Positions 3,734 through 39,009 of a stretch of 64,000 nt of DNA are shown piece by piece. The translations under genes were made by a program, and so were the position numbers. The stretch lies in NCBI GenBank assembly GCA_051294375.1, contig CM119266.1:18284087-18348086 (forward strand), read 5' to 3'. How positions within the stretch are numbered: the stretch's first letter is position 1; each line of letters begins with the position of its first letter. Origin of the DNA: Paraspadella gotoi (taxonomy: Eukaryota; Animalia; Chaetognatha). The notes under the pieces are model-generated. The model ran no database searches, was not told where the DNA came from, and worked only from the letters and a program-made list of their open reading frames with translations.

Positions 3734-4554
3734 ATAGGTTTCTTTTATTTTATATTGATAATTAAACCGATTATAAAAATGGGGTAGAATGCATTCAAAT
3801 GTTTAAGTGAAATACATTTTCGGAATCGCAGGAGCTCAGCTTTCTGAATTGTACTCCATTTTGGCCCTAAATTTTGAAGTTGAATTGAATGACCCCTTTT
3901 CTTAACAATTATTTCAGTTCTCAACGGATCGTTGTGTCATAATCGGTCGTTTGTCAAACTCTCTAGATTCTGGAATGTTGTCATAACGCGAGTCATTTAT
4001 TATTCGCCGTCGTTTCGATCAAGCCTCATTTAGGGATCGAGGACGAGACGACGCAACGACAGACAACAACAACGATGACAGGCGGGAACAATACCGAAGA
4101 AAACGTTTCAGTGTAAAACAAGTTGAATGGCGGGAGGAAGCCGAGCGTAAACGCGTTGAAACGTGCAGGAAGATTTGTTTCCCTTGCCTTTCCAGCTGGA
4201 GATACACGATTTAAGAACTGCCAGCATTATTCATTTCATTTTTATATTATCGTATACTCGAGAATAGCATTGAGCTTTTCTAAAAAAAAGCCATTACTTT
4301 TAATTTAAAAAAGGTAAAGTAATTCCTCGATTTTCTCTTGGTTGCACAGTGCAAATTTCTCAGCCTGGTGAATCAGGTTTTATTTTTTCCCTTTTTTTTC
4401 TTTTTTAAGAATTTTTTTTCTTCGTTTTGTTTTGGTATGAATGTAACTGCGCAATAGACTGGTTTTTCTCTTTACGGTTTTTTTCGCGATTTTTTTTTAA
4501 AGAGAACTTCTCAATCGCCTATAGACCTAAAGGGATTTTCTTGTAATTGGTTAC

Positions 4555-4853
4555 CATCGCAGAGATTCAAACTCAAGAGAAACGCGGATCGGCGACGCGA
4601 GTAAGATCGAAGAAGTAAGAATGAACTCTCTCATTGCGCCAGGAACAAAGGCCACCAGCCAGTGACCAGATGGCTTCCTTCCCGCAGGAATTTTTACCCT
4701 TACTCCGATCCTGGAAGACGTAATAAATTGAACAAGAATTGTATTGATTCACTCTGCTGGAATTTGAACACGTCGTCTATAATTTGTTTATCTTACTGGA
4801 AAAATAAATTCATTCTGATTCATATCGAAATCCCTGTCTATCTTACTTAAATG
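4555..4853 (+). repeat. 5' LTR (~299 bp)
   Basis: CATCGCAGAG...TCTTACTTAAATG aligns end to end with 14469-14770, with many small indels. Contains AATAAA motifs. Confidence 0.9.
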
Positions 4854-4872
4854 TGGTGACAGGAGTGGATTC
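4854..4872 (+). promoter_or_regulatory. Primer-binding site, tRNA-Leu-like
   Basis: TGGTGACAGGAGTGGATTC directly abuts the LTR. It resembles the reverse complement of eukaryotic tRNA-Leu 3' ends (TGGTGTCAGGAGTGGGATTC). Confidence 0.8.
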
Positions 4873-4940
4873 AACTCACCACGTCTCCACCAAGAAGAAC
4901 CAAGCCTTACCTCACCGGAACCACGCCACCTTTCAAGAAG

Positions 4941-6167
4941 ATGGACATCCCCTCCGCTCCTACCGTCCCCCCAGCCAAGGCGGGATGGAAAAAGGGAGCT
5001 GCGGCGCCAACCACAAGCACCGCAACTGACGGTAGCAGTACTGCAGCAGACCTCGAGTTCCACACCTTCGAACTCAGTCATAGCCTGCAACAACACTGCC
5101 AAGCAGGCAACGAACACGCCGACGTCACCCTCGAGGTGTTAAAGGTCATCAATGACGTCAATCTACAGAACAGACAAGAAATTGCTGTTCTCAGGAGCCG
5201 CGTCAAAGACTGCGAAGCCAACCTCGGTTCAAAAATCGACGACCTTCGCGGGATGATGCAACAGATGATGGCCCAAGTCAGCGAAAGGAACAACAACCAA
5301 TCCAACGTCAGCGAAAGACTCATGACCCTCTCCCGAGCTCCGCCTCCTCCATCAGGGTTATACCCTGACCTCCGCGGAGCAGCTCGCCCGGACTCATCCC
5401 AAGGACAGTTCATCAGGCAGCCAATAGACAAACACTGCCAAAATCCCCGAGACGAGACGCCCTCCGAAAGCGGGAGAAGTGACCCACCATCCTACAGCCC
5501 ATCCGAACAACCCATCAAGCTCGAGAAGAGGAGATCCGACGAAACACCAGCAGATTTCCTCCGCAGCTTCTACGAAGCCTTCAAAGATTCACCAACCCCG
5601 GACAAGGTTGATCAACAGCTGCGTGCCCTACTGGCTAGAGACAAGGTTGCTAGCCGCTTCATCGAGCCCATAAGCCAATCAATGTGGCTAGGACTCAGGG
5701 CTTTCTGCGAAGGTTCCTCGGTAAGCATTGCCGAAGCCCTCGCAGAAGCAAAGATTGAAGTCGACCCCCACGTACACGCCAAGTATGGATTGGCACTCGT
5801 CAACGCCGCCAGGGAGAACTTCGAAGCCGTCAGAGAGAAAGATAAGGCCTCCATCCCCGACTATGTCGCCCAGATGTTGGTCGAAGCTCTCGAGCCCTAC
5901 GTCCCCGGCATAACATCGGAGACCCTGGAATGGACAACGATGCTTGAAAGAGGCGAAACACGTCGCCTCGGAAAAGCTATAGAATACAAGCTAAGGGGAT
6001 ACCTCAAAAAGACAACTGACAACACCGTCAGGAAAGTTGTCAAAACCGTGTCAGAGGAGGACAAAGAAAAACTCGTCAACGCCCTGGTACAGAAAGGTCA
6101 GACCGACAAGGACCCACGCACGCCAGCGCGACTTCCTTCTACCAAGGCTCCATGTTACAGGAAATGA
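4941..6167 (+). CDS. gag: Gag-like protein (408 aa as assembled; probably extends further)
   Basis: First long ORF after the PBS, with an N-terminal coiled coil, a Pro-rich PPPPSGLYPDL segment and a helical capsid-like region. No CCHC knuckle seen. 6168-6540 still looks coding (basic/acidic peptides) but is frameshifted. Confidence 0.75.
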   Translation: MDIPSAPTVPPAKAGWKKGAAAPTTSTATDGSSTAADLEFHTFELSHSLQQHCQAGNEHADVTLEVLKVINDVNLQNRQEIAVLRSRVKDCEANLGSKIDDLRGMMQQMMAQVSERNNNQSNVSERLMTLSRAPPPPSGLYPDLRGAARPDSSQGQFIRQPIDKHCQNPRDETPSESGRSDPPSYSPSEQPIKLEKRRSDETPADFLRSFYEAFKDSPTPDKVDQQLRALLARDKVASRFIEPISQSMWLGLRAFCEGSSVSIAEALAEAKIEVDPHVHAKYGLALVNAARENFEAVREKDKASIPDYVAQMLVEALEPYVPGITSETLEWTTMLERGETRRLGKAIEYKLRGYLKKTTDNTVRKVVKTVSEEDKEKLVNALVQKGQTDKDPRTPARLPSTKAPCYRK

Positions 6168-6540
6168 ATAACATGAGCAAAAATGAGAGGATCTCAAACG
6201 AGAACTAGGGAGGTCCGGAGGCCAATCAGGACGCCGCGAGGATCGTTATGAACGCCGGGAACAACGCAGCCCAAACAGGGATCATGACAAAAAAATATAC
6301 AAAAATCGCGACTGGAAAAAACCAAGCTGGCGGGATGAAAAGAAAGGAAAAAAGGCCAAAACTTCGGCAGGAGAAGAGATATTGTAGACTTAACTCGTGA
6401 ATTTGATAATGACTCTGCTTCTGATATTGATGAAAATAAAAACGAATACTATTACAACCGCGTTATGAATAAAAAAAAAATAAATAGAAAAGGAAAGACA
6501 GCAGCTAAAAGAGCATTACAAAAACCTCGGGGAGAAAGTC

Positions 6541-9500
6541 ATGGCTATCGACACCCGACCCGTAGAAGGAAACCTTCGAGAAAAGGTGAAAGAACTGGCT
6601 CAAACTGCAAATAAGCTCAGAGGAAAATCTACAGCATCACGTATGCACAAGTTGCTCAAACCTCTCAATGCCAGCGAAATCGCCCTCGCAAACAAATATC
6701 TCCACAAGATGGGATGGAAGGACTGGAGCCTTGTAGATACTGCAGGCAAAAAGGCCATTATATCTAGGTCAAAGGCTTGCGCCAAATTAATGAGAAGGGC
6801 GAGGCGAAATGACGATACCGCCCCCTCTCCTCNNNNNNNNNNTCCTCCACCCTCTCTTCCTCCTTCTCCTCACCCAACCGAAGATTTTAACGCCGATACC
6901 GCCCTCCCCGCCGCTTATCCTCACCCACAACACAAAAAAAATAGACCTAACCCAACGAAACGCGGAGAAAGGTTAGGGCTAAGAAAACTGCGACCAGCTG
7001 GCAGTAAAAACAATCCGACTTACCGCATAATAGCGGGAGAGCAAAATGGAGAGTCTCTTCATCAGGCGACAATCAGGCGAGTTGAACTCGAATGTCACCA
7101 ACCGGAAAACTTCCCACCCCCGCGAAAGAAGCCGGAAACTCACAAAGATGAGAAAGACATGCCGGGACTNNNNNNNNNNCAAGGGACCACAGGACCGGAA
7201 CCCAGGGACGACACGGGTATCAACCGCCTCACTGGGAAGAATAGCTATATCCCAGCAGTAATCGCAGGAGCGCCTGCCAGCTGCCTGTATGACACAGGCG
7301 CGTCGATCAACACTGTGCCACGAAAGTTCGTGGAAAAATGGGGATTATCAAATAGCATTTACCATGGAACCCCGTTACGATTGTCTACCGCTACTGGAAC
7401 AATTACATTAACTGAGAGAATCAACCTCAGAATAATGTTCCAAAAATGGGTTCTACACACTGTCTTCTATGTCTCTGCCGATGAAAACGACCAGGACATA
7501 ATCATCGGCACTGCTATCACCAACCCAGGACCTCCCAACCAGCTTTGGGTAGTCCAACCTTCGGACAAAAGGGAAAACCTACAAGTAGCTTCGATGGACA
7601 GTAAACCCATTACACACTTATTTGGAGATAAGCATGAAGCCCTCAAAGCAGCCAGATGGCTCGCTCGGGGAAATGTTGACGAGCACACTGTCTTACCTAT
7701 ACACTCCGAAAGAGGCGAAGATGGCAAAACTAGAATAACATCAAACAGGGCCTACTGGAAGACCCTGACCGGATCAAGATGGATCGTTGAGGCAAAGAAC
7801 GATGACAAGAGTTACATTGCAGATGGAGACCAACTCAAAGAGGGAGTGGAATTGGATGCTGAACCCGGATATTGGGGAACAGCGCGACCTCTTATAACAA
7901 ATGAAGCCAAGGTCGATCTGCACCTCGAGACCGAGGCCACGGCCGAACCAGTACAGGCCGACTTGTCTGGTGAAAGACCTCTGCTCAGGAAGGTCCGAAA
8001 GGACCACATCCCAGCCACTACAATCGTCCATCACAAGCCAAGTGCGGAGGAGTTGAAAGCAGTGGAGGAAGCACGCCAAAAAAGAAAGCAGAAGCACGAC
8101 GAACGAGGAAAAGAAGCATTCCTAAAGCCGTTCAAGGATGTCGACCCCAGTCTCAAGGACCAAGCACAACAAGTTTGGGAAATCGTCTGGGAATATCGAG
8201 ACGTCTTCGGAGAATCCATCAACGACTGCAAGGAGGGTTTCCTCAACTACAAAGTCGATCTTGGATACACAAACGAGGATCTCCCAAAACCAAAATTTGC
8301 AAACCAAGGACCAGTAAAAAAGGCGGCTCTCAAACGATACCTAGAGGTGNNNNNNNNNNCAGGCATTGTATCACGAACGAGAAATGAGGCATATTCAAAC
8401 GCTTTTCTCATAAAGAAACCTGGACACATCGCTGAAGGGCAAGACCAAATGAACGACGAAACTTTTGCGAAACAATGGCGACTAATATGCGACCTCTCAG
8501 CCGTCAACGATAACATCTCCACCTACGCGACGGAACCACAAACGATAGCTTCGATACTCGAACAATATAAACCACACGAACTCCAGTGCTCAGTAGACAT
8601 CTTAGCTTGCTTTCATCAGGTCAATCTTACAGACCGTTGCAAACCGGTCACAACCTTTGCCGGAGCTGGNNNNNNNNNNTGGATGAATAAGCTGCCAATG
8701 GGGGGAGTCAACAGCGTCAACGTCCTCCAAGCCATCCTGGACGAAATCTTCCAAGATCTAGGCACGGATGTAAAAAGCTTTCTAGTCTATGTTGACGACC
8801 TCATCCTCACAGCAAAATCGCCAGAGGATATGGCCCACAGACTCCGCGATCTCTTACAGAGATGCAGAGATGAGAACGTGGTTCTCAAATGGACAAAAAG
8901 TGTCCTCTTACGCAAGGAAGACATCAAAATCCTTGGCTTCAGTATCTCCAAAAGCAAGCTCATGCCACAAAGGGAGAAACTCGACGCAGTCGAAGTTAAG
9001 CTGAAGTCACTAAAGACGCAAAAAGAGCTAAGAGCAATGCTAGCATCATTAAATTACTACAGATGCTTTACCCATCGCTTCTCTTATATCGCCCAACCCC
9101 TCCATGCCCTCACCTTGCTGGACAAAAAGGACTTTAAACTAACAGACAAACACACAGAAATGCTGCAACTACTCATAGAGGAAATAAGATCATCCCCTGG
9201 CTTAAACTTCTTGAACGACGCAAGGATCAGGCAGGGCTCCTACAGGATTTATGCTGACGCCAGCACAAGCGCGATGGGTGGACTAATAACTGCAACTGCA
9301 GACGGCATCGAATATCCGTTATCATTCCACTCAAAATCGTTTCCTGATGAATACAGGATAAAGCACATCAACGTTCTGGAGACGCTCGCTTTCAACATGA
9401 TGGTCCGAAAATTCAAGGGCTATACCTGTGGACGAAATGTCACCTTGGTCACAGACTCGCAGTACTTTAAGAGAGTGATGGACCTCCAACACGACAGGCA

Positions 9501-11787
9501 GCAACTGCTGCCCACCAATGTGCTCAGATGGATCACTGAAATACGACAAGAATGTCAACCTAGGGAAGTCATCCTCGTCAAGAGCGAGGACAACCCCGCC
9601 GACTTCTTGACCCGATTCACAGACCAAGGGCAAGTAACACCCCTTGACACCCCTTTTTTTCCGGCGGGTTTTGACGTCTCTGGAAAATATGAACCAGGTT
9701 TCGCGGAAAATCCAGTATATGACCAAGAAACCCCAGAGCACTTGGACCTCATCACGGGACACGCCCCGACACTAGCATTAGTAGCAGGAGCACTAACCGA
9801 GGACACGAAGGCATTCAGAGCAAGGTTCTTTGAGTTTGTGCGGCAACAATTTGCACAAAGGAAGGCCAACATTGAAAGATTATACGGCAAGCCAAAAACA
9901 AAAGATCCCGACACTTTCGTGAGAACAATATCAGCCAAGGACTGGTTACTAGGACATCCAGAACTAGAAATGCTCAGCGAGATGACGGGAATCACCCTGA
10001 TTATGATGGACGAGGACTCTACCAAAGAAGCAGGCTGCAAATTCGAAAGGGTTTATGGCTTACCAACGAACAGCAGAACTCTGAAAATATTCAGAACAAT
10101 CACAGGACAAGTTAGTCTAGTCAGTGATGAAAGCCAGACATCACCCTTACGACCGGCCACCCTCGAACCCATCCAAACAATCAAAGTTGATACACTCAAA
10201 CAACCAGAGCGCAGAGGCCGGCCAAAGACCCTCAAAGTCGACATACATCACATCGACGCCCTCCCTGAGGACTTCATAAATTTACAAGTAGATGCCGCCA
10301 GCGCCAACGCCACCCTGACATCAAAACCACCAATGGAGTTGTCTCACACCATAGAAGCGTCAAACACCAACTGGCCCGGCGCTCACCAAGAACTCATGAT
10401 TGACAGCACCCTCGAAGCAGACGTCGACGCCACGGAAGATGAAATCGCGGAAGAGATCAAAGAACCGCAAGAAAAGCAATCTAACATCGTCCCCATCGCC
10501 TCTGAAATAAAAAGATGGCAAAATGAAGATGAATCCTTCAAACTAGTCATTGAAGCCCTTAAGGAGGGCGATCGCGAAAAGGCGAGGCAGAAATTGGACG
10601 AAAAGATGCAAAAGAGAAAAACAACTACTGAAAAATACTTGTCAAACTGCATGGACGACCTCGACGTCACCAAAAATAACATTCTAATAATCAAAGGCTT
10701 CAAGGCAAACACCCCCACAAAAAAATTTGTGGTACCAACCTCAAAGGCAGAAGAAATCACAAAACAACTCCACGAACGCTTTGGGCACCCTGGACGCGAT
10801 CGAACAGCCTTTATTGCAGCCCAGTACATCTCAGCTCCAGGGCTCACAGCGGCCGCCGCCAAATGCCTTCGAAACTGCGACAACTGCGCCAAAGCGACGG
10901 ACGCGCAGCGACATAATGAAACACCATCAAACCCAAACCTAGCCATCGCCCCCTGGGAGTCGCTTAGCATCGACGTTATGCACCTCCCTCAAGTCGCTGG
11001 ATATAACTACATACTAGTAGCCTCAGACAATGCATCGGCATACACCTGGGCTATACCATTGCGCAGAGCAGACGCCACAACAATCGTGAAGGCCCTCGAT
11101 GAAAAGATCTTCCTCCAACATGGATCCTACATGGAAGTGAACTTCGACGGAGCAACACAACTAAATGGTTCGGCGATGAAATCAATACTAGACCTACTAG
11201 ACACAGTGGGCAGACGCGTCCTTGTGGGCAGGAAGGACAGCAACAGAGCAGAAAGAGATATCGGCAGAATCCGCCAAGCATTACGGAAAGCAGTAGACGA
11301 CCAGCCAAACAAATGGCTTGAACAACTACCGCACCTCATGCTCCTCCTCAATGCGACACCCATAGTAGGTTGGAAGACAGATATGTCGCCACACGAAATC
11401 CAGTTTGGCCACAGGCCAAGAATAGTTGAAAGCGCCGATGACTTTACAAAAAGAAATCTCATCGACTTTATCAGACAAAGGGCAAACAAACAGGAAGAAG
11501 CCCAAGCACAACTGGCCAAACAGAGAACTAAGCTCTACAAAAAATCGGCCAGAAGAAATCCATACAGACAGCCAGAGGAGATTAAGGTCGGCGACCTGGT
11601 CCTGACCAGACGTGATCTGATTATGAACGGAGCAGCGACGACCGAAAACAAGGTTAAAAGAATTTATTCTGGCCCTCACAAAGTAGTAGAGAAAGATGGA
11701 AACCACTACGTCGTCTCCATAGCCGGCAGGAATCTAAAGTATCACAGACGCCGCCTCAAAAGACATGAGACAAAAACTACAAAATAG
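6541..11787 (+). CDS. pol: Pol polyprotein (protease, RT, RNase H, OTU-like insert, integrase)
   Basis: Protease LYDTGAS (~7290); RT WRLICDL, DILACFHQV, LPMG, YVDD (~8790); RNase H YADAS...ETLA...TDS...NPADFLTR (~9250-9615); integrase HERFGH...CDNC, D-D-E (SIDVM, NFDGA, AERDIG) and GPY/F-like YSGPHKV. Four 10-N gaps interrupt the ORF. Confidence 0.95.
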   Translation: MAIDTRPVEGNLREKVKELAQTANKLRGKSTASRMHKLLKPLNASEIALANKYLHKMGWKDWSLVDTAGKKAIISRSKACAKLMRRARRNDDTAPSPXXXXPPPSLPPSPHPTEDFNADTALPAAYPHPQHKKNRPNPTKRGERLGLRKLRPAGSKNNPTYRIIAGEQNGESLHQATIRRVELECHQPENFPPPRKKPETHKDEKDMPGXXXXQGTTGPEPRDDTGINRLTGKNSYIPAVIAGAPASCLYDTGASINTVPRKFVEKWGLSNSIYHGTPLRLSTATGTITLTERINLRIMFQKWVLHTVFYVSADENDQDIIIGTAITNPGPPNQLWVVQPSDKRENLQVASMDSKPITHLFGDKHEALKAARWLARGNVDEHTVLPIHSERGEDGKTRITSNRAYWKTLTGSRWIVEAKNDDKSYIADGDQLKEGVELDAEPGYWGTARPLITNEAKVDLHLETEATAEPVQADLSGERPLLRKVRKDHIPATTIVHHKPSAEELKAVEEARQKRKQKHDERGKEAFLKPFKDVDPSLKDQAQQVWEIVWEYRDVFGESINDCKEGFLNYKVDLGYTNEDLPKPKFANQGPVKKAALKRYLEVXXXXGIVSRTRNEAYSNAFLIKKPGHIAEGQDQMNDETFAKQWRLICDLSAVNDNISTYATEPQTIASILEQYKPHELQCSVDILACFHQVNLTDRCKPVTTFAGAXXXXWMNKLPMGGVNSVNVLQAILDEIFQDLGTDVKSFLVYVDDLILTAKSPEDMAHRLRDLLQRCRDENVVLKWTKSVLLRKEDIKILGFSISKSKLMPQREKLDAVEVKLKSLKTQKELRAMLASLNYYRCFTHRFSYIAQPLHALTLLDKKDFKLTDKHTEMLQLLIEEIRSSPGLNFLNDARIRQGSYRIYADASTSAMGGLITATADGIEYPLSFHSKSFPDEYRIKHINVLETLAFNMMVRKFKGYTCGRNVTLVTDSQYFKRVMDLQHDRQQLLPTNVLRWITEIRQECQPREVILVKSEDNPADFLTRFTDQGQVTPLDTPFFPAGFDVSGKYEPGFAENPVYDQETPEHLDLITGHAPTLALVAGALTEDTKAFRARFFEFVRQQFAQRKANIERLYGKPKTKDPDTFVRTISAKDWLLGHPELEMLSEMTGITLIMMDEDSTKEAGCKFERVYGLPTNSRTLKIFRTITGQVSLVSDESQTSPLRPATLEPIQTIKVDTLKQPERRGRPKTLKVDIHHIDALPEDFINLQVDAASANATLTSKPPMELSHTIEASNTNWPGAHQELMIDSTLEADVDATEDEIAEEIKEPQEKQSNIVPIASEIKRWQNEDESFKLVIEALKEGDREKARQKLDEKMQKRKTTTEKYLSNCMDDLDVTKNNILIIKGFKANTPTKKFVVPTSKAEEITKQLHERFGHPGRDRTAFIAAQYISAPGLTAAAAKCLRNCDNCAKATDAQRHNETPSNPNLAIAPWESLSIDVMHLPQVAGYNYILVASDNASAYTWAIPLRRADATTIVKALDEKIFLQHGSYMEVNFDGATQLNGSAMKSILDLLDTVGRRVLVGRKDSNRAERDIGRIRQALRKAVDDQPNKWLEQLPHLMLLLNATPIVGWKTDMSPHEIQFGHRPRIVESADDFTKRNLIDFIRQRANKQEEAQAQLAKQRTKLYKKSARRNPYRQPEEIKVGDLVLTRRDLIMNGAATTENKVKRIYSGPHKVVEKDGNHYVVSIAGRNLKYHRRRLKRHETKTTK

Positions 11788-12305
11788 ATATTCTTTTCTC
11801 TTCTCCAAAAGAAAAAGAAATATATTTTTTCTCTCCAAAAGACGTAGACAAGTAGACGAGACACAAAGATGTAGACAAAGTAGACGAGACACAAAAACGT
11901 AGACATACAACAATAGAAGCCCCGGAAACAGACAGAAACAATCTCGCCTATCCTCTCAAGCGACCAGCAAAAAAAGAAGAAACAACAACAAAAAAAAAAA
12001 AAACAAAAGACTTCCGGAAAGCCACGGAACAAGGCTCCTCCGCGAAGCGACGATCGATAACAAAGGCCCTCGCCTCGCCAAAACAAAAAAGAAGCCAAGA
12101 GAAAGAAAGAAAGCGACGAGAAGGAAGGTTTAAAAGGACGACGCCGAGAGGGAACTCCACCATTCCAAATCAAGATTCTCTCTCAAAAAGAAGCTCGAGA
12201 CACAGAATCCGAAAACAAAAATTATTTTTTGCTTTTCGAAATTCTCTCTCTCTCTTTTCGAAATTCTCTCTCTCTCCCTTGACAAGAAGAAACAAAAAAA
12301 AACAG

Positions 12306-12494
12306 AGTCTTTTTAAAGACTAAGCCCAAAAGTCTTTTTTAAGACTAATCTAAAAAGATCATCTAAACCAAAAGTCTTTTTAAAGACTAAGCCCAAAAGT
12401 CTTTTTTAAGACTCATCTAAAAAGATCATCCAAACCAAAAGTCTTTTTAAAGACTAAGCCCAAAGGTCTTTTTTAAGACTAATCTAAAAAGATC
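12306..12494. repeat. Three 67-bp tandem units, each containing two 16-bp palindromes AGTCTTTTTWAAGACT
   Basis: Palindromes start at 12306, 12331, 12373, 12398, 12440 and 12465, in the pol-env spacer. Confidence 0.9.
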
Positions 12495-12533
12495 GGCAAA
12501 ATAAAAGGGTCCCAGAACTCAGCTCAAAGGAAG

Positions 12534-14435
12534 ATGATAGCGATAGCCTTCCTTTGCGTCAGCGTCACCCTCGTCAACTGGGTATCGGTGGATGGAGCCA
12601 ACCACCCAACTGACGTCGTCCAAATTTACGACTGCAATAAAACTTCAGATCACGCTGCAACGATGTTAGATCCGCATCACTGTGACAACATAACGCCGGT
12701 TACAGAGAAAATAAGCCGCGGCGAACTCGTGTTCATCCCCAGCAAAGAAGAACACGACGGGAAGGGATGCGACTTGACCATTATGGCATCTGGCAGCGTA
12801 TGTGGATGGTGGTCCATCCAATACCCGAACCTGAAGGCAGTGGACCACTTCACGCTCACCAGGATGCAGTGCCTCAAATTACACAAAGGAGAGCGCATTT
12901 CGCTAGACAACATCCCCGTCAAACTAGCAGATCGCACGGGAGTGATGAGACCACTCATGATCGAAGGTGGAAAACTCGGACTAAACCAAGCAACTCACGA
13001 GATAGGCACTACCGATGCAGATGGCTACTGCACAGGAGAAAAGCTAATCTTCCATGACTATACATACGATGGTGAGAGAGCCACCCTCACGATCAATCTC
13101 ACTCTCTACGAACAGAAGGTTCGGCTGGAAAACATTGGAAACATGCCCAGCAGAACTGACTGTGACAAAGCGTCGCAAGCCTGCACCTATCCAGGTGGAA
13201 TCCTGGCATGGAAGGACCCCAGCTGCCGGGCTCATCGGGCCTACACAGGGCCGATAGCACGCAGCACAGATGGCTTCATCAGGACCCTAACCCAAGCCGA
13301 CAAAGAAACTGCACTAAAGAACTGCACCCTTAGAGATGGCAAGACGCCCTGCAGCCAAAATCAAGAAATAAAAAGAAATCCGACCAGCTGCTGGAAAGAA
13401 TGCCTCAGCTCCTTCGTCCGGCCCAAAAACCTGGATAATTATGAACGCTGTGCACCAATCTGTGAGACTCAAAACAAGCTACTGTTTACACTACGGCTGG
13501 CGGGAAAACGGAAGCATGTACCAGGTTGCGACATCGAAGTGGAGGAAACCAACTCCCCCCACTTCTACTTCACCAACCAAGTCACTCGCGACCTGGCCAC
13601 AGATGAAAAATTAATCGAGGCATTACGGGAGAAAGGATCGAGATTGGCAGTAGAAAATCACGAGAGCCTTACTGCCTTATCCAGAGCACTACGCAAAGAA
13701 ATTTGCGACCTCAAGGTCACGGAGGCACGAGCAACTGCAGCCGTGGCCCACAAAAACCCCACCTCAACAACCTTCCTAAAGAGAGGGGTGGTCGCAATCA
13801 TAAGAGGCGAGCTGCTAGTCACGGCCAAGTGTGACGAGACGCTTGCCCATGTCCGAACCACCAAAGAGTGTTACCATGATCTTCCTATCACCTTCAGAGG
13901 CCAGCAAGTCTACAGACACTCCATCCACCATCACGTCGTCAAATCATCAACACAAACAAAATGCTCCCCGCCACCAATCTACCTCATAAACGGAAAATAT
14001 AGGACAGTAGATGGCGAACAGCATAACAACTATCAGCACATAACTTCAAACCTGCCAAACACGCATGATCACGTCTCGAACGAGCAACAAATCTACCTGC
14101 AAATTGGGGACTTCCTTATCCAGCACGACAAATTCACTAAGGATCAGCAGGACTTCAAGAAGTACGTCGGCGAAATATCAAGAGGATCACCTTACACAAC
14201 CATAAAAAGAATCTTCGGGAATATCCCAAAGTGGACGTGGCTGGCCGATGCATCGAACCTCATCCCATTCATCTCGATCATCGTGACAATTATCATAGGA
14301 ATAGCGCTAGCCTGTTACTGCTGCCCGCCCTGCACCGCAAGACGAGCACCACAACAACCCGAAACCTTGACCTTGGAACAGGTCCGAAACAGGATATTCG
14401 TCCCCCTCACGGTCTCGACTCCAGCTACCGACTGA
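12534..14435 (+). CDS. env: Env glycoprotein, chuvirus-G-like / class III (gB-type) fusion protein, 633 aa
   Basis: Signal peptide, Cys-rich ectodomain with YDC, CGWWS, DGYCTG, GILAWKDPSC, GELLVTAKC, R-T-T-K-E-C-Y-H-D-L-P motifs, C-terminal TM helix (LIPFISIIVTIIIGIALA), juxtamembrane CYCCPPC and a short tail. It ends just before the PPT. Confidence 0.85.
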   Translation: MIAIAFLCVSVTLVNWVSVDGANHPTDVVQIYDCNKTSDHAATMLDPHHCDNITPVTEKISRGELVFIPSKEEHDGKGCDLTIMASGSVCGWWSIQYPNLKAVDHFTLTRMQCLKLHKGERISLDNIPVKLADRTGVMRPLMIEGGKLGLNQATHEIGTTDADGYCTGEKLIFHDYTYDGERATLTINLTLYEQKVRLENIGNMPSRTDCDKASQACTYPGGILAWKDPSCRAHRAYTGPIARSTDGFIRTLTQADKETALKNCTLRDGKTPCSQNQEIKRNPTSCWKECLSSFVRPKNLDNYERCAPICETQNKLLFTLRLAGKRKHVPGCDIEVEETNSPHFYFTNQVTRDLATDEKLIEALREKGSRLAVENHESLTALSRALRKEICDLKVTEARATAAVAHKNPTSTTFLKRGVVAIIRGELLVTAKCDETLAHVRTTKECYHDLPITFRGQQVYRHSIHHHVVKSSTQTKCSPPPIYLINGKYRTVDGEQHNNYQHITSNLPNTHDHVSNEQQIYLQIGDFLIQHDKFTKDQQDFKKYVGEISRGSPYTTIKRIFGNIPKWTWLADASNLIPFISIIVTIIIGIALACYCCPPCTARRAPQQPETLTLEQVRNRIFVPLTVSTPATD

Positions 14436-14452
14436 CCACGTACGCTGTCGTC

Positions 14453-14466
14453 AGAGGAGGGGGGGA
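14453..14466 (+). promoter_or_regulatory. Polypurine tract
   Basis: AGAGGAGGGGGGGA, 2 nt upstream of the 3' LTR start. Confidence 0.85.
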
Positions 14467-14468
14467 CG

Positions 14469-14770
14469 CATCGCAGAGGAATCAAACTCAAGAAACCGGA
14501 TCGGCGACGCGAGTAGAAGATTCGAAGGAAGTAAAATGGAACTCTCTCATTGGCCAGGAGACAAATGGCACCAGCCAATGACCAGATGGGCTTCCTTCCG
14601 CCGAGGAATTTTTACCCTTACCTCCGATCCGATGGAAGAGTATAAATTGGGAACAAAATTGTATTGATTCACTCTGCCTGGAATTTGACACCGTCTTAAT
14701 ATTGTTTATCTTCTGAGAAATAAATTCCATTCTGATTTCATATCGAAATCCCTGTCTACTTACTTAAATG
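14469..14770 (+). repeat. 3' LTR (~302 bp)
   Basis: CATCGCAGAG...TACTTAAATG, a direct repeat of 4555-4853. Confidence 0.9.
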
Positions 14771-15209
14771 TAATCAGATTCTTTTCAAAAAGCTTGCATA
14801 TTTTTGGAAAAGCATTCCCGAATTTGAAAGATGGACAACACAAATAATTTTTCCAGACAGTCAACACCACAATTTCAAACCATATACCAGAGCTATTTGT
14901 TATCATGGCTTTAGAAAATATGTCAATAAAATGAAAAATTGAATTTGTTGAATTTTTAACAATTTCATTTCTTTATCTTAGCTAAAAGTTTGAATACTTT
15001 TGGGAAAGCGTTTTTGAATTGGAAAATGGACATTTCAAATGGTTTATACGAATAACAAAAGCGGACAGTAAAATCGTTCAGTAGAGCCTATCCTATTGTT
15101 ATGAAAGTTTTCAACATTTTGCAGATCAAATAAAAAAAGAATTTTGAAAAATTCTAAGTATTGTTGTTTACTTTTTTTTACTTTTTATACAATATTTTAA
15201 GTTTGACAG

Positions 15210-18200
15210 ACGTTGCGAGTTTTTTTCAGAAGAAAATGAAACTGAAGATATAAATAACATTATGAGTCAAACATCGGGGGCGATAACGCAGGCAACTGCC
15301 CCTACACCTCTACTGACAATTCCAATCATACCTTCTCACCATCAGGTATAAACGAAATTCGGGCAATATCTTATCTTGATAATGGCTTTTTAAGTTTTGG
15401 TCTAAAATTATTTTATGTTTCACCTTTAAAATATGTTTTGAGAAAGGATGTTTACCTCGAGTCCACCTTGCACAACAGATTCCCTTATTTGCATTCCCTT
15501 TGCCACCACACGTCGTCATCCCTGCGACATTTCAAACTCCGGCTTCCACTATTGTATCGTCGACAGGGACAACGTTTGTCAGTACTCAATGTCAACCTCC
15601 TATTCTTAGACCGCAAAGCGAACAGGTATATTTTTTAAAAGTTTACTGCCAGCCATAAAACCATTTTAACCTACTCTTCACCCTCTAAAGACTCAGGATG
15701 AAGAGGGCGAAACCCCTATGGACTGCTCGGTTTCTCAACCGCCCGTCCTCCATCCCGAGTCGGACACAGAGGAAGAGCAGGTGGACATGGAGATGCCGAT
15801 TGAGAATAGAGTGCCTCAACCTCCAGTTTTGCACCCGGAAAACGAAGAGAAGGACAACCAACCACCTGTTCTGCACCCAGAGGCTATTCAAGTGCAGCAA
15901 ATTCATCAGGTTCCCCAAGTGCAGACCGTGCAGACGGTACAGGGGGTACAAACTGTGCAACAAGTGCAGGGGGTGCAGACAGTGCAGCAATTGCAACCTA
16001 TTCATCAAATTCAGCAGGTAAGAGAAAAATAATTCTTCTCTGGTTTATATTTCAATTTCATAATTAATATCTTTCCTCACTGAACTATGAACTCACTTGC
16101 CTGTCAGGTGGTTTGCACCGATGCGAATGGAATCAAAATGAACTACACTATCCCGGTGGACAAAGCTACCATCATCGTGAAAAACCCCAACACCTCAAAG
16201 AGCAGCAGCGGGTAAGGTCGGAATAAAAGGCAAACGTTAAATTTGAACAAAACCTTTGACATTCGAATCATGATTAGGATAGTACCAAAATAAAAAATTT
16301 ACTAGTTTTAAACAAACCTGTTAACGATGATGAAGGCTTGAAAATAAAGCCGAAACATGTCCGTTTTATTCCAATAAAACAAAAATCGTTGTGGAAATTC
16401 TAAATCAAACTTCTCTTAAAGTTTTAGATTTTAAAATATTTACTAATATGTATTATTTTATTTTTTTTAATATATTTTTATTGTTAGTTTTTATTAGCTT
16501 TCTTTTAAAATAATAAAAACCGAAAAACTTACTATTATTGGGAAAGGTATATTAGTGTTATCTTCAGGAAATAGAGGGAGTGTGGCGATATATTCACACC
16601 GCCTCAAGAGCATCTATACAATACTAGGTTTTATTACTTTCTGCCCTAGTTTTCTAAAATATACATCATTCCTACAAGAAAGGCAATAATGAAAACCTAA
16701 AAGGCTAAACATAAAGAGGTGGAAATGGATAATTTCCCCCCCCCCCCGTGTCCGTTCGTGATTGACACCAAAAAAATGCGTACCATTTCTCATTGGATAA
16801 ATATTTTTTAAATTTTCTTTTCTCATTCTATAGCAAAGTACTTGACGTTTATTATATTTTAATTTCATGAGATTAATTTGATATTTACTTATGTAAAACC
16901 TTTCTTTAATGGTCATCCATTTTCATCTTTAGTAAAAAACTGAAGCTTTAAAAAAAATAAAATCATTAGAAATTAATTACTCATTAATTACTTAAAATTA
17001 TTAAAATTCATTTACACCATTAAATTAAGAATTATCTGGGAATCCTTACGATATAAAATAATTATTTAAGACAGTCAAGAACAAGGACAGCATTTTTTCT
17101 AATTGTACGAATTGTATAAAGAAAACTTGAGATTTACAATTTAAAAAAATAAATAAAAAAATCATTACTCAGAAGTTACACAACATTACGATAATTTAGA
17201 TACGCTATTGATTAGACCATTAATAAGGATTTCTTATGATGTAAAATTTTTTTATAATTCAATCAAGAACACGCCTAAAATTGTCTTTTTTCGCAAATTT
17301 TACTGTGTTAGATAAAAAATTAAACATAGAATAGTAAATGAATTAAACACGAAATGAAACATACATAAAAAACGTCAAATAGTTCTCCAACTAATGATAT
17401 ACTTATGAATTATATTTATTAAATATTTAAAGTATAGTAAAGATTTTTTTGGTATCACTCGCGAACGGACACGGTAGTTAAAATTGGTTACAAAAACATA
17501 TAATTTTTTTATATTATTAAGGATAAGAATATGAAGTAAAATAGGATCTGACTGTAGTCCGCCACTACAGGTGGGTTAGACGTTCTTTCCCGCTTACTAG
17601 TATTGACGCCAATGGGGCGCGAACCCAAGACCGCTTGTTGGAAAGAGAGAATTCTTGCTCTTACGCAACCGGGGCTGCCCTGATAGACTCAGGCGGGTAG
17701 CAATAGTAAATTTTTTGCCACACACATTTATATGTTGAATGTAATTTAAAACATTATCTCAAATAATTTACCTTTTAATTTTTATTTTATTTTATTTTAT
17801 TTTTATTTTATTTATATTTTAACGCTTTTGCGCATAAGTATCGTCGTCGTCGTCATTCCAAATTATAGATTATATGATTAAAAATTTTTTTTTCTTAAAT
17901 CGCAAAATATAATTTTTCTGTCTTTGAATTAATTTTTTTTTTTCAAATTTGAATTTTTTAGTATCAAAATTTGTCGTCAATCCAGATTTTTTTATGCGAT
18001 TGCGACGATCCTTATGCTTTTAAGATTTTTTATATTATTTCTTGTTCGTTGGTTCTCTTTTTGTTCACATTAATTTATTTTTTAAAACAATAAGTTTATC
18101 AGTTGGAAACCTATCGCCTTCATAGATTTCGTCTCTTTAATCCTAATATCCAGCCAAATGGTGATCCTTCTATCAATGTTATATGAAGGTTTCAGGTTAT

Positions 18201-21082
18201 ATTTTGAATACTTATGATAAATAAGATTTATAATTCACCAAGACCCTAATATCACAGTTATAATTATAATATTTTTATACATTTCATTTTTTTATATTTA
18301 TATTTTCTTTTAGATAGGAGAGGAGCTGGTTTACTCGCTCAATCTAATACATTATTGTAATTTACTTACCCCCCAAAATTGTACAATTTTTTCAATTCAA
18401 TTGTATGAAAAGTATTAGATCGGGGAATACTATATTTGTACTCCGCCCAGAATCAAAATGATAGAGACAGAACAAAACTTTTAAAATTTTAAATTTACAG
18501 ATTCAAAATTATTAAATAGAACGTGTAAATGTATTTTAAAATAAAACGTTTTCCACTTAAAGCGGCGGAAGTTCATCACAACACAAAAAGACGATCCAGT
18601 GCCCTACCCCTGGATGTTCGGGCATCGGCCACGTTTCGGGCAACTACGCCTCGCATCGGACCCTGTCGGGATGCCCGTGGGCGGATCGGGCCATGGTGCG
18701 GCAAAATCACGTGGAACTCAAATGCCCGACGCCGGGCTGCAAGGGGGAAGGACACTCGACGGGAAACTACACTCATCATCGGAGTTTGTCAGGCTGCCCG
18801 TTGGCCAACAAGCCGAGAAAGTCCTTGCACCAATCGGGGGTAAGCGACAGCCAGCGAGCTGTTTCAAAAGGGAACCGAATAATATTTAATCAAATGCGCG
18901 GCTTCATGAAGCAAAATCCCACACCCCCCTTTTCCCAGAATCTCAATCTCTTGGCCAACGCGGCGACGTCGGTTGCTGCGGCATCGGCTGAGGAGGAAGA
19001 GGAAGCGGAGGAGGAAGAACCGCCGGAGTTCGACTCGGCGACGGGAGCGGTAGTGGAGGAGCCGCTGGAGACGGCAGTCGACGCCTCCGAAGTCGGCAAC
19101 TCTGCCGTCTCGGATTCGGGATCGGCCGATTCCAAGACGGACTCCGAAGGGCTGCTCACCATCGACGAGACGGCCGAGGCGTCGCGTGACGGTGAGGAAA
19201 GAGTGGAAGTGAAGGAAGAGGGCTGAGGGAGAGATCAATGGAGGGTAAATTCGAGTTGCTTATGATAGTTATGACTCCCTATAACCGTTTATAACATATA
19301 AATTATTTATGTATAAACTACATTTTTCTATGCCCCTCTTTAACAGTCGGCGCAGACCCTGAGGCGGCCGCGACTTCAAACGCCTTGAAGACGACGCGGC
19401 CCCTCCCGCCAATGGGCTCCGTTTACACAATGACCGGATCTTTTCCCGCGCCGGAATCTCACTCGGCGTTCATAGCCGCTACCGGTGAGTTTCGTTGGAG
19501 GAAAGAAAGGGGGAAAAGTAGGAAGAAAAGAGGGAATACTAAAACCTACGTATAAGAACGGAACAAAGGTTATCATGTTGGATTTACTTCTGTGTTAAAA
19601 AGTGGTTGAAACCGATATGAAAATTCATTCCAAACGTCTACAACAGGTTATCATCCTTATGAATGAATATTCAATATTCCCTGCGGTTTTAATCGAATAA
19701 AAGGATAACTGAATTAATGTATTGGATCGGGGAAATTTCCCAAATCATTGTACTTCGCATTATTTCTCCCGCTCTCTGTCTACTAACCACACTTTTCTCC
19801 CAATGCTCTCTACCAGGCTCCCAGGTCCCACCATCCCTAAATTGCACTTACGTCCACTTGCCGATGTCCTCTTATCAAGTCGCCCGCGACGGAGCGGAGA
19901 GCGACGACGACGACAACGACGACAACGAAGACGATGACAACGACAACGCCGTCGACGTGGAGGACACGAGTGACGAACCCAGCGACGCTCAACTGGCGGC
20001 GTTGCGCGACCATATCGGCGCCGGAGCGACTTTCCTCGTCGACGGCGAGGCGGCGCAGGGAGAAGGAGTCGTGGAGGAGGAGGAAGAAGAGGATGAAGAA
20101 GAGGAAGAGCCGGATGGAGAAGAATTGGTAGAAAACAATCGAACGATCGTGGAATCGGATCAAACAACGATCCTCGATGGAAACGAAAGACCGCAAGTGG
20201 CGCTTAAGACGTCAGAAGATGCGGCGCTAATGGACGTGGAGCCCGGTCTCGTCGCGGAATCCGTCGTCGTCTCTTCGTCGCGATCGACGGCTCTCTCCTC
20301 TTATAACGACGCCGGCGTCGTAAAATCCGGCGAGGCGGGATTACAGACAAAACCTGCGCCGAAACCGCGGGCAAAGATCGGGGGCGTTGTATTTAACGAG
20401 AAGAGGGAGAGCGTGCGGTACGAGAGTTGCCCGACGCCGGGATGCGACGGGTCGGGTCATTCCAATGGGACCTTCTTGTCCCACAGGAGTTTGTCGGGTA
20501 AAAGTGGAAATCTTCGGGTAAAATCTGTACATTAATCACTTCACAAACTGACACTTTTTGCGCTTCCCCTTAGGCTGTCCCAGAGCCTCCGTCGCCTTAA
20601 AACGAGCAAAGCTTTCGGCAGAGGAAATCAATCAAATCCACCTCAAAGCCGCGCAAGGTAAGGACAGAGATATTGTAAGATATATTGGCATAGGGAATTA
20701 AACAGCGTCAACTTAAGAAAAGGAACCTTGGCTGAAATGCATCTTCACTTGCATAGAAAAACAAATTCTAAACAATTAAATAACTAAGTTTAATAACAAA
20801 ATAAAATCCAATGGGTAAATCACAAAAAGTAACCCTTCGCCCGGATCTTCTATAGGTCAAGACCTCGAAAACGATGAGGTCCTCCTTTCCCTCGACGGCG
20901 ACATCCTCGATCTACAAAAGGACAACGCGCGACTAGAGACGTCGATGATCGAATTGCGGACGGAGATCGCCTCTATGGAATCATCCTTACGGCAGAGGAT
21001 CCGGGAGAACAAGGCCTTGGAGGAGAACATCCAACACCTCACCAAGTATCACGAGTTCATGAAGAAGACGAACAAGTGTTGA
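15210..21082 (+). CDS. MYT1: MYT1/MYT1L/ST18-family CCHHC (C2HC) zinc-finger transcription factor, multi-exon
   Basis: Three CPTPGC-x-G-x-GH-x7-HR(S/T)LSGCP fingers (18600, ~18723, ~20428) and the family C-terminal coiled coil (20856-21082). Phase-compatible GT-AG exons: 15210-15345, 15479-15625, 15691-16017, 16108-16211, 18563-~19244 (needs a 1-nt fix near 19222), 19347-19484, 19817-20497, 20574-20657, 20856-21082. True start uncertain (ATG 15262 or further upstream). The symbol denotes the family. Confidence 0.85.
17546..17680 (-). mobile_element. tRNA-derived SINE-like copy
   Basis: Minus strand has a tRNA-like head with a B-box-like GGGTTCGCGCCCC. Its 3' part (TAACCCACCTGTAG...CTACAGTCAGATCC) resembles 31462-31498. 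Confidence 0.5.
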
Positions 21083-23366: not shown

Positions 23367-23401
23367 TAGATCTCGTAAACTTTGTTTACCAATTTTATTT
23401 A

Positions 23402-24350
23402 CATGGTAACAATTTTACAAGCACCGGTAGAAATACGCTGTCATTTGCAAACCAGTAGTTATTTCATTGATTTTAAAAATTAGTTGAGTAGAAAATACTA
23501 AAACTATTTATGTATTAAAATTTTATATTGATCAGTTAAGATATGCCTTGACAATGAGTGGAGAAAGTTGGCTTTTCAAATCGGGTTTCATTTTCCAACT
23601 CACTGTTTTTAAATTAAATTTTTTTTGGGAACTTTTAGCACTTTTTTAAACAAAGTATTTATTAAAATATTAACAATATTAATATCCTCAGTAAGCCCTT
23701 AAAAATATGAAGAGAATGATATACTTACGAAGGCTCTAACATAAAAAGTAAGCTGCCCAGCCTTGGTTCAATTAAGAGTATCAAAAGTGAATTATTTAAA
23801 ATTTTTCAAAATATATGACCTGTTTAAATTATTATAACCTAAAATATTATTATTTATATAAGAATCATGAAAGAGCCTGAAAAAAAATATTTATGATAGC
23901 CAATCACAATTTGATAAAAATCATAAATTTACTCTCCAGCTATTGATTTTTAAAATATATCTCGTTTTTGAGTATCCTAATTAAATTAAAGCTGGGCCAA
24001 TTAAATTTTATACTACAGTATTCGTAAGTATATCATTCTCTTCATATTTTTAAGGGCTTACTGAGGATATTAATATTGTTAATATTTTAATAAATACTTT
24101 ATTTAAAAAAGTGCTAAAAGTTCTTAAAAAAAAGTGAATTTAAAAACAGTGAGTTGGAAAATGAAACCCGATTTTAAAAGCTAACTTTCTCCACTCATTG
24201 TCAAGGCATATCTTAACTGATCAATATAAAATTTTAACACATAAATAGTTTTAGTATTTTCTACTTAACTAATTTTTAAAATCAATAAAATAACCACTGG
24301 TTTGCAAATGACAGCGTATTTCTACCGGCGCTTGTAAAATTGTCACCATG
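23402..24350. mobile_element. Foldback MITE with ~330-bp TIRs and TA target duplication
   Basis: 23402-~23730 is the near-perfect reverse complement of ~24020-24350 (CATGGTAACAATTTTACAAG... / ...CTTGTAAAATTGTCACCATG). TA on both flanks. Confidence 0.9.
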
Positions 24351-25115
24351 TACAAATTAGATTCGTTAAACTGTCGGAAAAAATCGTTACCAAATACACA
24401 TAGTCAATACGACTAAATAATATAAATCCAACAGTTAGAGTCCCGAACGACAAGACACACCGGTTTTAAGAACAAAAATTAGAGAGAGGAATAAGCCACC
24501 AGTTCACGACGCAAAGTGAACACTGACCAGTGACAGTCACAAATTACAATTTTCATTTCGTCCTTTCGATCATGGAAATTGTTTTGATGGTAAAATATAG
24601 TCATGGGCCTATACATATATATTAACTTTATGTTGAATCTGGAACGAAAAAAAATGTTTCAAAACAACGTTGACATAACATCGACAACAGTCATCTATCA
24701 TCTTATTGCGTAAAAATGGCAAGAATATTTTTCGGTAATAATGAAAGTAATAAACGCAGTTAACGTTGGACATGGGGCAAATCGATTAGGCAATAGGACA
24801 TTTAGATTGAACAATAAACACTGATTGGACATTAAGATTGGAAAATGGACGCTGAGATTGGACATTCAGATAAAATGAGATCTTAGAAAAAAAAGGATTG
24901 TTCAGAAGCAGACGATCGTGAAGAGACGAACCGTCAGATCACTGGATTTGAATTTCGATAGGACGACGATTTTCGTTCTCGATTTAAATATCTCTTTTGT
25001 TATAGTTCCGTCGATTTAAACTAATTTTTTGCAATAGAAGGGTTTTTTTTCTCTTTCTGTTCTCATCCCTCCTTTCCCCTTTTCATGAAACAATTGTACA
25101 ATGTACCCTAGAACC

Positions 25116-38482: not shown

Positions 38483-39009
38483 CGTCTGTTGAAGAGGAGG
38501 AGATCATCGGAAGAGGAAGGGTTAGTTTAGTTAGTTTAGTTTAGTTTAATTTTTGGGAATTAGTTGGATTCCTATACACAGTAAAAACGAAAAGAGATAA
38601 AAAAATCAGGCCAAGTTAATGTTCTCGATATTTCTCCTTATTAAAATAAATCCGAGGCCTATAATTTTGCTCGTCTCATGTTTAATAATTGTTTATCGAT
38701 GAATGATTAATTAATATCAAATTTTAATCTCCACGGGCTCACAAGTTTGTAAGCATACAGCGTTCAACTACAGCGTTGGCAGCGTTTTTTTTTTTCTGAA
38801 AGGAAAAAGGAAAACAACAATGTTACTCATTCTGAAGAATTGGATGTTAAGCAATTGTATGGTCAACATTGAAATAAAATATAAAAATGAAAATGAGAGC
38901 AGAGAGTTTTCATGTTAAATGGGAGCGAGCAGACAATTTTTAATTTTGTTTTGAGTATTTGAATGTTTTGGAACATTATAGGAAAGTTGCTATTAAAGAA
39001 GAAGCGTTT

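What the first reader, a model, noticed from the sequence alone, without database searches (positions are those of the whole stretch)
9745..10125. OTU deubiquitinase-like domain, apparently catalytically dead, inserted between RNase H and integrase
Seen: Pol has a long extra region between RNase H (NPADFLTR) and the integrase zinc finger. Pol aa ~1069-1195 reads LITGHAPTLALVAGAL...FRARFFEFVRQQ...DTFVRTISAKDWLLGHPELEMLSEMTGITLIMMD...RVYG...TLKIFRTITGQVSLV. Known OTU pattern: GDGNCLFRA...LR..V..I...Y...M....WGG..EL.ALS...I.V....FG...I.L.Y...HY. Order and spacing match, but the catalytic Cys and His positions read as P/T and Q. Inference: a pseudo-DUB that could bind ubiquitin, either to target integration to ubiquitinated chromatin or to counter host defence as viral OTUs do.
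Basis: inference. Interest (0 to 1): 0.85.

Follow-up and report, generated by a model that had tools for sequence, protein, structure and literature searches.

The report
Dead ubiquitin-protease domain in retrovirus-like polymerase
A retrovirus-like jumping gene in an animal genome carries, inside its polymerase protein, an extra domain predicted to be shaped like a ubiquitin-cutting enzyme but lacking the cutting residues in every relative examined, so it likely works as a binding module rather than an enzyme.

Summary
Window 9742-10134 encodes a ~130-residue domain in the Pol of an intact LTR-gag-pol-env Ty3/Gypsy element, just after RNase H. Alone it has no Pfam or PDB sequence hit. With 15 metagenomic relatives the predicted model (pLDDT 70) matches OTU deubiquitinases: 35 of 35 listed Foldseek rows and VIA Z 10.3, against 3.4 for the first unrelated fold. 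ESM Atlas features agree. The catalytic Cys site is Pro (9766-9768); the His site is most likely Gln (10108-10110). No relative has either residue (0 of 11 and 0 of 8 rows), and contigs from other runs confirm the sequence, so it is a family-wide pseudo-enzyme, not a damaged copy or assembly error. Sister families show mostly synonymous changes. Ubiquitin binding and integration targeting are unsupported: the domain is tied to RNase H by a conserved linker and separated from integrase by a variable one, and two known dead OTUs do not bind ubiquitin. OTU domains are known in Ginger and Helitron DNA transposons; my searches found none described in LTR-element Pol. Verdict: a real new variant, function inferred only.

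The parts
4548..4853 (+). 5' LTR (ends approximate); candidate target-site duplication GTAAT/TAAT at 4543-4547 and 14770-14774; TGG-starting primer-binding-site candidate from 4854
   Evidence: first few LTR bases unresolved because the two copies disagree there
4860..6167 (+). gag-like ORF, 435 aa stop to stop
   Evidence: called gag by position only, no significant Pfam hit
6484..11787 (+). pol ORF, 1767 aa: aspartic protease, RT, RNase H, OTU-like domain, linker, integrase
   Evidence: PF13650, PF00078, PF17917, PF17921 above cut-off; rve below; RT-RNase H best PDB hits are Ty3
9592..9741 (+). RNase H C-terminal motif and short conserved linker into the OTU-like domain
   Evidence: P0017 and P0006 align to Pol without a break across it (44% and 37%); 33-54% identity in 6 of 7 rows over model residues 1-24; pLDDT under 50
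9742..10134 (+). OTU-fold pseudo-deubiquitinase domain (model residues 33-163; ORF aa ~1087-1217)
   Evidence: weak PF02338 hits in relatives
9766..9768 (+). Pro at the catalytic Cys position, first residue of the helix 41-49
   Evidence: Pro 9, Leu 2 of 11 rows
9943..9963 (+). Trp-x-Leu-Gly-His-Pro-Glu motif, equivalent of the OTU variable-loop/WG motif
   Evidence: Trp, Leu and His each 13 of 13 rows, Glu 11 of 13; aligned to the motif of reference OTUs
10108..10116 (+). Gln and Ser at the inferred catalytic His and third-residue positions
   Evidence: C-terminal end-points of VIA alignments to OTULIN, FAM105A and OTUD3 with residue numbers, assuming an ungapped last strand; Gln 3, Ser 5 of 8 rows
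10135..10494 (+). acidic, low-hydrophobicity linker of ~118 aa, not conserved
   Evidence: sister-family contigs stop aligning by 10243
10495..11787 (+). pre-integrase region, H2C2 zinc finger, integrase core and C-terminal part
12483..14435 (+). env ORF, 650 aa, class III fusogen type
   Evidence: PF24664 Monjiviricetes_fusion E 1.2e-20; no PDB sequence hit
14466..14770 (+). 3' LTR, preceded by a polypurine tract at 14453-14465

Best explanation
The Pol of this env-bearing Ty3/Gypsy family carries, right after RNase H, a domain predicted to have the OTU fold that lacks the catalytic Cys and His in every relative examined, and it likely works as a non-catalytic protein-binding module attached to RT-RNase H. 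Shown: the domain's presence, position, missing catalytic residues and family-wide conservation. Predicted: the fold. Inferred: an ancestor captured an OTU gene into the RNase H-integrase bridge; catalysis was lost before the sampled families split; the remodelled active-site face (Gly-x-x-Pro loop, Trp-x-Leu-Gly-His-Pro-Glu, Phe-Arg) was kept under selection as a docking surface. The element's own protease would cut in the long variable linker downstream, leaving the domain on RT-RNase H in the particle, where it would bind a host or element protein that positions or shields the reverse-transcription complex. The partner is probably not ubiquitin held the way an enzyme holds it. It would fill the slot in which insect errantiviruses keep a 'pseudo' RNase H. 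Step odds: OTU fold about 0.9, no canonical activity about 0.9, this role about 0.5.
For: Fold: 35 of 35 listed Foldseek PDB rows are OTU-class, best E 5.9e-4, 3 with E up to 0.001; among 48,161 chains the first 33 VIA rows are titled OTU/deubiquitinase/viral protease entries, best Z 10.3 (rmsd 3.2, 128 aligned), first unrelated fold Z 3.4; 22 of 30 Atlas feature hits lie in clusters with PF02338, on 19-20% of members in the two rows shown (independent of my alignment). Dead site: Cys position Pro 9 or Leu 2 of 11 rows, His position Gln 3 or Ser 5 of 8, third residue Ser/Ala/Gly. Selection: 18 of 31 listed sister-family differences in the domain are synonymous against 22% (all changes) or 35% (transitions) expected; no indel listed inside the domain; the Gly-His-Ala-Pro codons show no listed first/second-position change among 7-9 contigs per run and the Pro codon changes synonymously. 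Tie to RNase H: unbroken alignment from RNase H into the domain, none beyond aa 1222; summed contig cover falls to the window's own family after 10243. Against enzyme-like ubiquitin grip: 13 of 14 reference OTUs have Gly/Ala right after the variable-loop aromatic, whereas here bulky residues follow; FAM105A and CG3251 do not bind ubiquitin. Bridge slot holding pseudo-RNase H folds: PMC13524379.
Against: No partner and no cleavage site were shown; the role is inference. Sequence-level support for OTU is weak: hhalign probability 2-13% (scores 18-25 against a maximum of 15.4 in 40 column shuffles), Pfam hits under cut-off, no OTU in PDB sequence searches. Residues that contact ubiquitin in active OTUs are partly kept: the variable-loop Trp (13 of 13) and an aromatic upstream of the His position (Phe in 6 of 8), which fits ubiquitin binding. 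The synonymous count rests on the 40 best-supported of 273 differences, each read singly against this copy's codon. The relatives are 15 short fragments from few lineages, so an active branch could be unsampled. Model residues 1-38 are low-confidence.
Confidence: 0.5

Rival explanations
1. A ubiquitin-binding pseudo-DUB: it grips ubiquitin or a ubiquitin-like tag without cutting, acting as a decoy that shields tagged Pol/Gag or sequesters a host defence signal. The first reader's narrower version, steering integrase to ubiquitinated chromatin, takes about a quarter of this probability.
For: OTU fold closest to small nairovirus and OTUD-type domains that bind ubiquitin; variable-loop Trp 13 of 13 and His-loop Phe 6 of 8 kept, the latter matching the aromatic said to contact the ubiquitin tail (PMC3705208); loss of only the catalytic residues is what a binder would show.
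Against: Bulky residues where 13 of 14 active OTUs have Gly/Ala; Pro replaces Cys and the loop before it is remodelled; two characterised dead OTUs do not bind ubiquitin; the link to integrase is a long unconserved linker.
Confidence: 0.27
2. Still an enzyme with a relocated or non-canonical site, using the conserved His104 and Cys131 of the model, or an external nucleophile.
For: His104 is invariant (13 of 13) and Cys131 nearly so (11 of 12); some triad-less USPs are reported active (PMC10919355 section 4).
Against: Neither residue is at a canonical position; their distance could not be measured; His104 may simply cap helix 104-114; the Pol holds no ubiquitin-tail-like Leu-x-Gly-Gly site for self-processing.
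Confidence: 0.07
3. A decaying relic: an OTU passenger that died and is only tolerated because it must keep the pol frame open.
For: Catalytic residues are gone; identity to distant relatives is only 20-43% over most of the domain.
Against: Invariant motifs across families 30-45% identical, few indels, excess synonymous change, and much higher conservation than the neighbouring linker in the same frame.
Confidence: 0.08
4. Not OTU-derived: a pseudo-RNase H or other bridge domain whose predicted model resembles OTU by chance.
For: The slot is known to hold RNase-H-like and 'other' domains; direct sequence evidence is weak and the single-sequence model gave no hit.
Against: Three partly independent methods point to OTU; the element order helix-helix-helix-helix then four strands differs from the strand-first RNase H order given in PMC13524379; Z 10.3 stands far above unrelated rows.
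Confidence: 0.08

Closest known systems
Pseudo-deubiquitinases of the OTU class: FAM105A/OTULINL; Drosophila Otu and CG3251
   Same: OTU fold with a broken triad, kept for a non-catalytic role (PMC7862380 passages; PMC4654579 abstract and Discussion); FAM105A matched at Z 7.5.
   Different: Those are host genes; this one sits in a retroelement polyprotein, is a minimal ~130-aa domain closer in shape to nairovirus and OTUD domains, and has lost all three positions, with Pro at the nucleophile.
Nairovirus L-protein vOTU and OTUD1/2/3, yeast Otu1/Otu2
   Same: Best structural matches (Z 9-10.3); like vOTU, a small OTU domain inside a viral polymerase polyprotein.
   Different: They have Cys-His-Asp/Asn and cut ubiquitin or ISG15; identity is 8-16%; no donor can be named.
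Ginger1 DNA transposons and Helitron/Helentron OTU domains
   Same: A transposon protein carrying an OTU domain, in Ginger1 fused to a Gypsy-like integrase (PMC2836005 passages; PMC6431247 passage).
   Different: DNA transposons without RT or LTRs; in Ginger1 the OTU is C-terminal to the integrase; recognised by Pfam/CDD there, whereas this one is upstream of integrase, degenerate and below cut-off.
Errantiviruses with gB-type env (Chary and Hayashi, PMC13524379)
   Same: LTR-gag-pol-env Ty3/Gypsy layout with a class III fusogen; extra folded domains in the RNase H-integrase bridge.
   Different: Their bridge classes are RNase H/tether, mini, pseudo-RNase H, none, or 'Other' (5 elements, not described); 'OTU' and 'ubiquitin' occur 0 times in the text and 7 supplements. 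Figures could not be seen.

Membership tests
Active OTU deubiquitinase (PF02338) | OTU (papain-like) fold | tested here: met
   Predicted model only; Atlas features
Active OTU deubiquitinase (PF02338) | Catalytic Cys at the start of the first helix | tested here: not met
   Pro in the window; Pro 9, Leu 2 of 11 rows; one relative has a Cys two places upstream
Active OTU deubiquitinase (PF02338) | Catalytic His and Asp/Asn on the last strand | tested here: not met
   No His within 4 residues in 8 of 8 rows; Ser/Ala/Gly at the third position
Active OTU deubiquitinase (PF02338) | Score above the curated Pfam cut-off (23.3 bits) | tested here: not met
   No hit for the window; best relative 19.8 bits
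Active OTU deubiquitinase (PF02338) | Isopeptidase activity | not testable with these tools
   Needs a bench assay
OTU-class pseudo-deubiquitinase | OTU fold with the triad missing | tested here: met
OTU-class pseudo-deubiquitinase | No activity shown, non-catalytic role shown | not testable with these tools
   Only indirect signs of selection
Env-bearing Ty3/Gypsy element (errantivirus in the sense of PMC13524379) | Two LTRs around gag, pol, env; PR-RT-RNase H-IN order | tested here: met
Env-bearing Ty3/Gypsy element (errantivirus in the sense of PMC13524379) | RT of Ty3/Gypsy type | tested here: met
   Best PDB hits Ty3 RT and Gag-Pol, E 2e-20 and 5e-20; no tree built
Env-bearing Ty3/Gypsy element (errantivirus in the sense of PMC13524379) | Placement in a named RT clade | not tested
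Pseudo-RNase H / tether bridge domain | RNase-H-like five-strand fold | tested here: inconclusive
   OTU is the far better match and the element order differs, but no direct superposition on the published bridge models was possible
Ginger1 transposon | Terminal inverted repeats, no RT, OTU C-terminal to integrase | tested here: not met
   LTRs, RT present, OTU upstream of integrase

The most novel reading that the evidence does not exclude
A lineage of enveloped retroelements has turned a captured deubiquitinase into a packaged ubiquitin reader or decoy, delivered with reverse transcriptase into the next cell, where it masks ubiquitin marks or guides the DNA-integration complex: a first retroelement-borne pseudo-DUB, and a sign that ubiquitin signalling restricts these elements in invertebrates.
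Probability: 0.25. Interest if true: 0.85.

Novelty: new variant of a known kind. Interest (0 to 1): 0.6.

Why it matters
The RNase H-integrase bridge of Ty3/Gypsy Pol has so far been described as holding RNase-H-like or small domains. A conserved, catalytically dead OTU fold there adds a foreign, host-pathway-derived module to the Pol repertoire and a pseudo-enzyme to the short list of dead OTUs. It is invisible to Pfam, so similar cases may be missed in annotation. It gives a small, expressible domain with which to ask whether LTR elements engage the ubiquitin system directly, a link proposed for OTU-bearing DNA transposons in PMC2836005 but left there as a possibility.

Tried and rejected
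Sequence searches of the lone domain: Pfam, PDB and a word-indexed search among 525-1672 aa proteins gave nothing. Profiles A1 and A4 and protein P0016 against PDB sequences gave only chance hits, no OTU. Search for longer relatives returned only P0005, so no full-length relative was obtained. DNA scans for related loci in metagenome and viral contigs confirmed none; phage records gave chance hits. No genome is held, so copy number and full sister sequences could not be studied. The single-sequence model (pLDDT 45) gave no Foldseek hit with E up to 0.001; discarded as low-confidence. P0013, a repeat protein, was dropped from the relatives as a chance hit. Global hhalign mode gave meaningless alignments. 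No RNase H fold is listed among the 50 VIA rows shown; a missing row does not exclude it. Complex prediction of the domain with a viral-contig ubiquitin as stand-in returned no verdict (score 0.00, alignments not used): no evidence either way. No RNA holder listed, so expression is untested. A Thr-Arg/Lys-Ser/Ala motif that I recall as a protease site in Gypsy Pol lies just past the domain in 5 of 8 relatives checked but not in the window's linker; not used as proof. Motif searches in the supplements of PMC13524379 were blank but long cells are cut there and no Pol sequences were seen, so this says little. Papers opened that did not bear: PMC9940879, PMC11943222, PMC12440569 (passages).
Full report
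Context. The finding lies in one LTR retroelement spanning about 4548-14770: two LTRs, a gag-like ORF (4860-6167), a 1767-aa pol ORF (6484-11787) and a 650-aa env ORF (12483-14435). Pol has protease, RT, RNase H and integrase in Ty3/Gypsy order and its RT-RNase H is closest to Ty3 among solved structures. Env matches PF24664, a class III fusogen family, at E 1.2e-20. Env-bearing Ty3/Gypsy elements with gB-type env are widespread in invertebrates (PMC13524379: abstract, sections 7 and 8, first part of section 6), so that layout is known. Flanking zinc-finger genes point to an animal host; no genome is held.

The observation. The RNase H end motif is at ORF aa 1037, the usual pre-integrase region starts near aa 1338 and the zinc finger at 1417, leaving about 300 extra residues: a 40-aa linker, a ~130-aa domain (9742-10134) and a ~118-aa acidic linker. 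Contigs from four runs reproduce the stretch: 0 differences over 9500-10400 in X1 and X6, 0 over 9687-10400 in X8, 1 over 9640-10400 in X9, so the residues are not an assembly error (X1 and X6 may be this DNA's source).

Is it OTU? Alone, no: Pfam and PDB sequence searches are blank. A search of 1.84 billion representatives gave 10 hits, 9 of them Pol-like fragments and one repeat protein that I dropped; a profile search added 6 more, 15 in all. P0017 carries an RNase H hit directly upstream and P0006 the same RNase H end motif, so the arrangement is shared. PF02338 is hit weakly by 5 of the 15 (E 0.0012, 0.014, 0.062, 0.16, 0.23; all below cut-off; profile positions 15-113 of 128, that is without the Cys and His boxes). 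AlphaFold2 with the 16-row alignment gave mean pLDDT 70, pTM 0.66, with residues 41-165 mostly 70-90 and 1-38 under 50. Foldseek on PDB listed 35 rows, all OTU-class, best E 5.9e-4; the viral library likewise put nairovirus L proteins and OTU-named proteins near the top among many unnamed rows. VIA against 48,161 chains gave Z 10.3 (rmsd 3.2, 128 aligned) for a nairovirus OTU, 33 leading rows of OTU-type enzymes, and Z 3.4 for the first unrelated fold. ESM Atlas features, computed from the window sequence alone, put 22 of 30 hits in clusters carrying PF02338 (scores 0.91-0.92). Against this, profile-profile comparison with 14 distinct OTU domains fetched from viral contigs (5 of them checked with Pfam, 5 of 5 pass) is only modest: scores 18-25 versus at most 15.4 in 40 shuffles, probability 2-13%, and the window sequence scores 2.1 bits on their HMM, within the shuffled range. 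The single-sequence model found nothing. I put the OTU fold at about 0.9.

Is it dead? The catalytic Cys aligns with Pro (9766-9768) for 14 of 14 lead sequences and 320 of 325 subsamples; that Pro opens helix 41-49 of the model, where papain-like enzymes place the nucleophile (established knowledge). Among rows covering it the column is Pro 9, Leu 2 of 11. The His register is unstable by sequence (Leu158 109, Val156 57, Glu162 49, Gln155 19 of 325), but the C-terminal end-points of the structural alignments to OTULIN (160 to 344; His339), FAM105A (160 to 355; His350) and OTUD3 (161 to 188; His following the loop at 178-181) all give model residue 155, Gln at 10108-10110, if the last strand is ungapped. 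Whatever the register, none of 8 rows has a His within 4 residues.

Is it kept for something? The same runs hold 21-28 contigs under 90% alike, sister families in the same host, many covering the domain. Of 31 listed differences inside it, 18 are synonymous against 22-35% expected (only the 40 best-supported of 273 were shown, each read singly). No indel is listed inside it. Around the dead Cys loop no first- or second-position change is listed for Gly-His-Ala-Pro among 7-9 contigs per run (differences near piece ends are not listed). Across distant relatives Trp100, Leu102 and His104 are invariant (13 of 13), Cys131 11 of 12, Arg150 8 of 8. Conservation runs unbroken from RNase H through the domain and stops in the downstream linker, in protein and in DNA.

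How it likely works. A captured OTU lost catalysis early and was kept as a binding module on the RT-RNase H side of Pol (inference, about 0.5). For ubiquitin binding: the variable-loop Trp and an aromatic before the His position are kept (role from PMC3705208 passages). Against: bulky residues stand where 13 of 14 active OTUs have Gly or Ala, and FAM105A and Drosophila CG3251 are reported not to bind ubiquitin (PMC7862380 passages; PMC4654579 abstract and Discussion). Targeting integration would need the domain to stay on integrase, from which an unconserved linker separates it.

Novelty. OTU domains are described in Ginger1 DNA transposons, C-terminal to a Gypsy-like integrase, and in Helitrons (PMC2836005 passages; PMC6431247 passage). 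Seven full-text searches for an OTU in LTR-element Pol (listings read, only the papers named here opened) found no description. The one structural survey of this bridge region lists RNase-H-like, mini, pseudo-RNase H, none and five unexplained 'Other' cases (supplement 5, part 1 of 3) and never uses 'OTU' or 'ubiquitin' in text or 7 supplements; its figures were not visible. Repbase reports, subscription journals and bioRxiv supplements were not searchable and could hold a prior note. Earlier scan notes on OTU domains in other mobile elements are unchecked leads and concern other architectures. Verdict: real, a new variant of a known kind (TE-borne OTU; pseudo-OTU), interest 0.6.

Noticed in passing
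window 4548-4853 and 14466-14770: The two LTRs differ by many one-base insertions and deletions (84% of columns identical) although the ORFs are intact and the tested internal stretch matches contigs exactly; possibly a local assembly consensus error rather than age.
   Followed up: partly
window 6167-6484: The gag-like ORF ends about 320 bases before the pol frame opens, with no overlap; how Pol is expressed (splicing, own start, frameshift lost in assembly) is unexplained. Pol has about 250 basic, low-complexity residues before the protease with no Pfam hit.
   Followed up: no
window 12483-14435: Intact class III (Monjiviricetes-type) fusogen env inside the LTRs of a Gypsy element; PMC10084718 (passages) found no clear Gypsy capture of Jingchuvirales glycoproteins, while PMC13524379 reports gB-type env widely. 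Its origin was not tested.
   Followed up: partly
window 12306-12506: Three tandem 67-base repeats (91-100% identical) in the pol-env spacer, next to an A-rich 155-aa open frame at 11856-12323 with no Pfam hit.
   Followed up: no
window 9955-9957 and 10036-10038: A His (13 of 13 rows) and a Cys (11 of 12) are conserved away from the canonical OTU site; a relocated dyad or metal site is untested.
   Followed up: partly
runs X1, X6, X8, X9 on window 9500-10400: The host carries some twenty or more diverged contigs of sister families with the same domain, so the lineage has radiated in this genome.
   Followed up: partly
window 23400-24352 and 16746-17474: Long inverted repeats (396-base arms at 91%; 41-base arms at 83%), probably MITE-like insertions.
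   Followed up: no
window 18561-20535 and 37325-41496: Host genes: C2HC zinc-finger (Myt1-like by recall) exons and C2H2 zinc-finger arrays.
   Followed up: no
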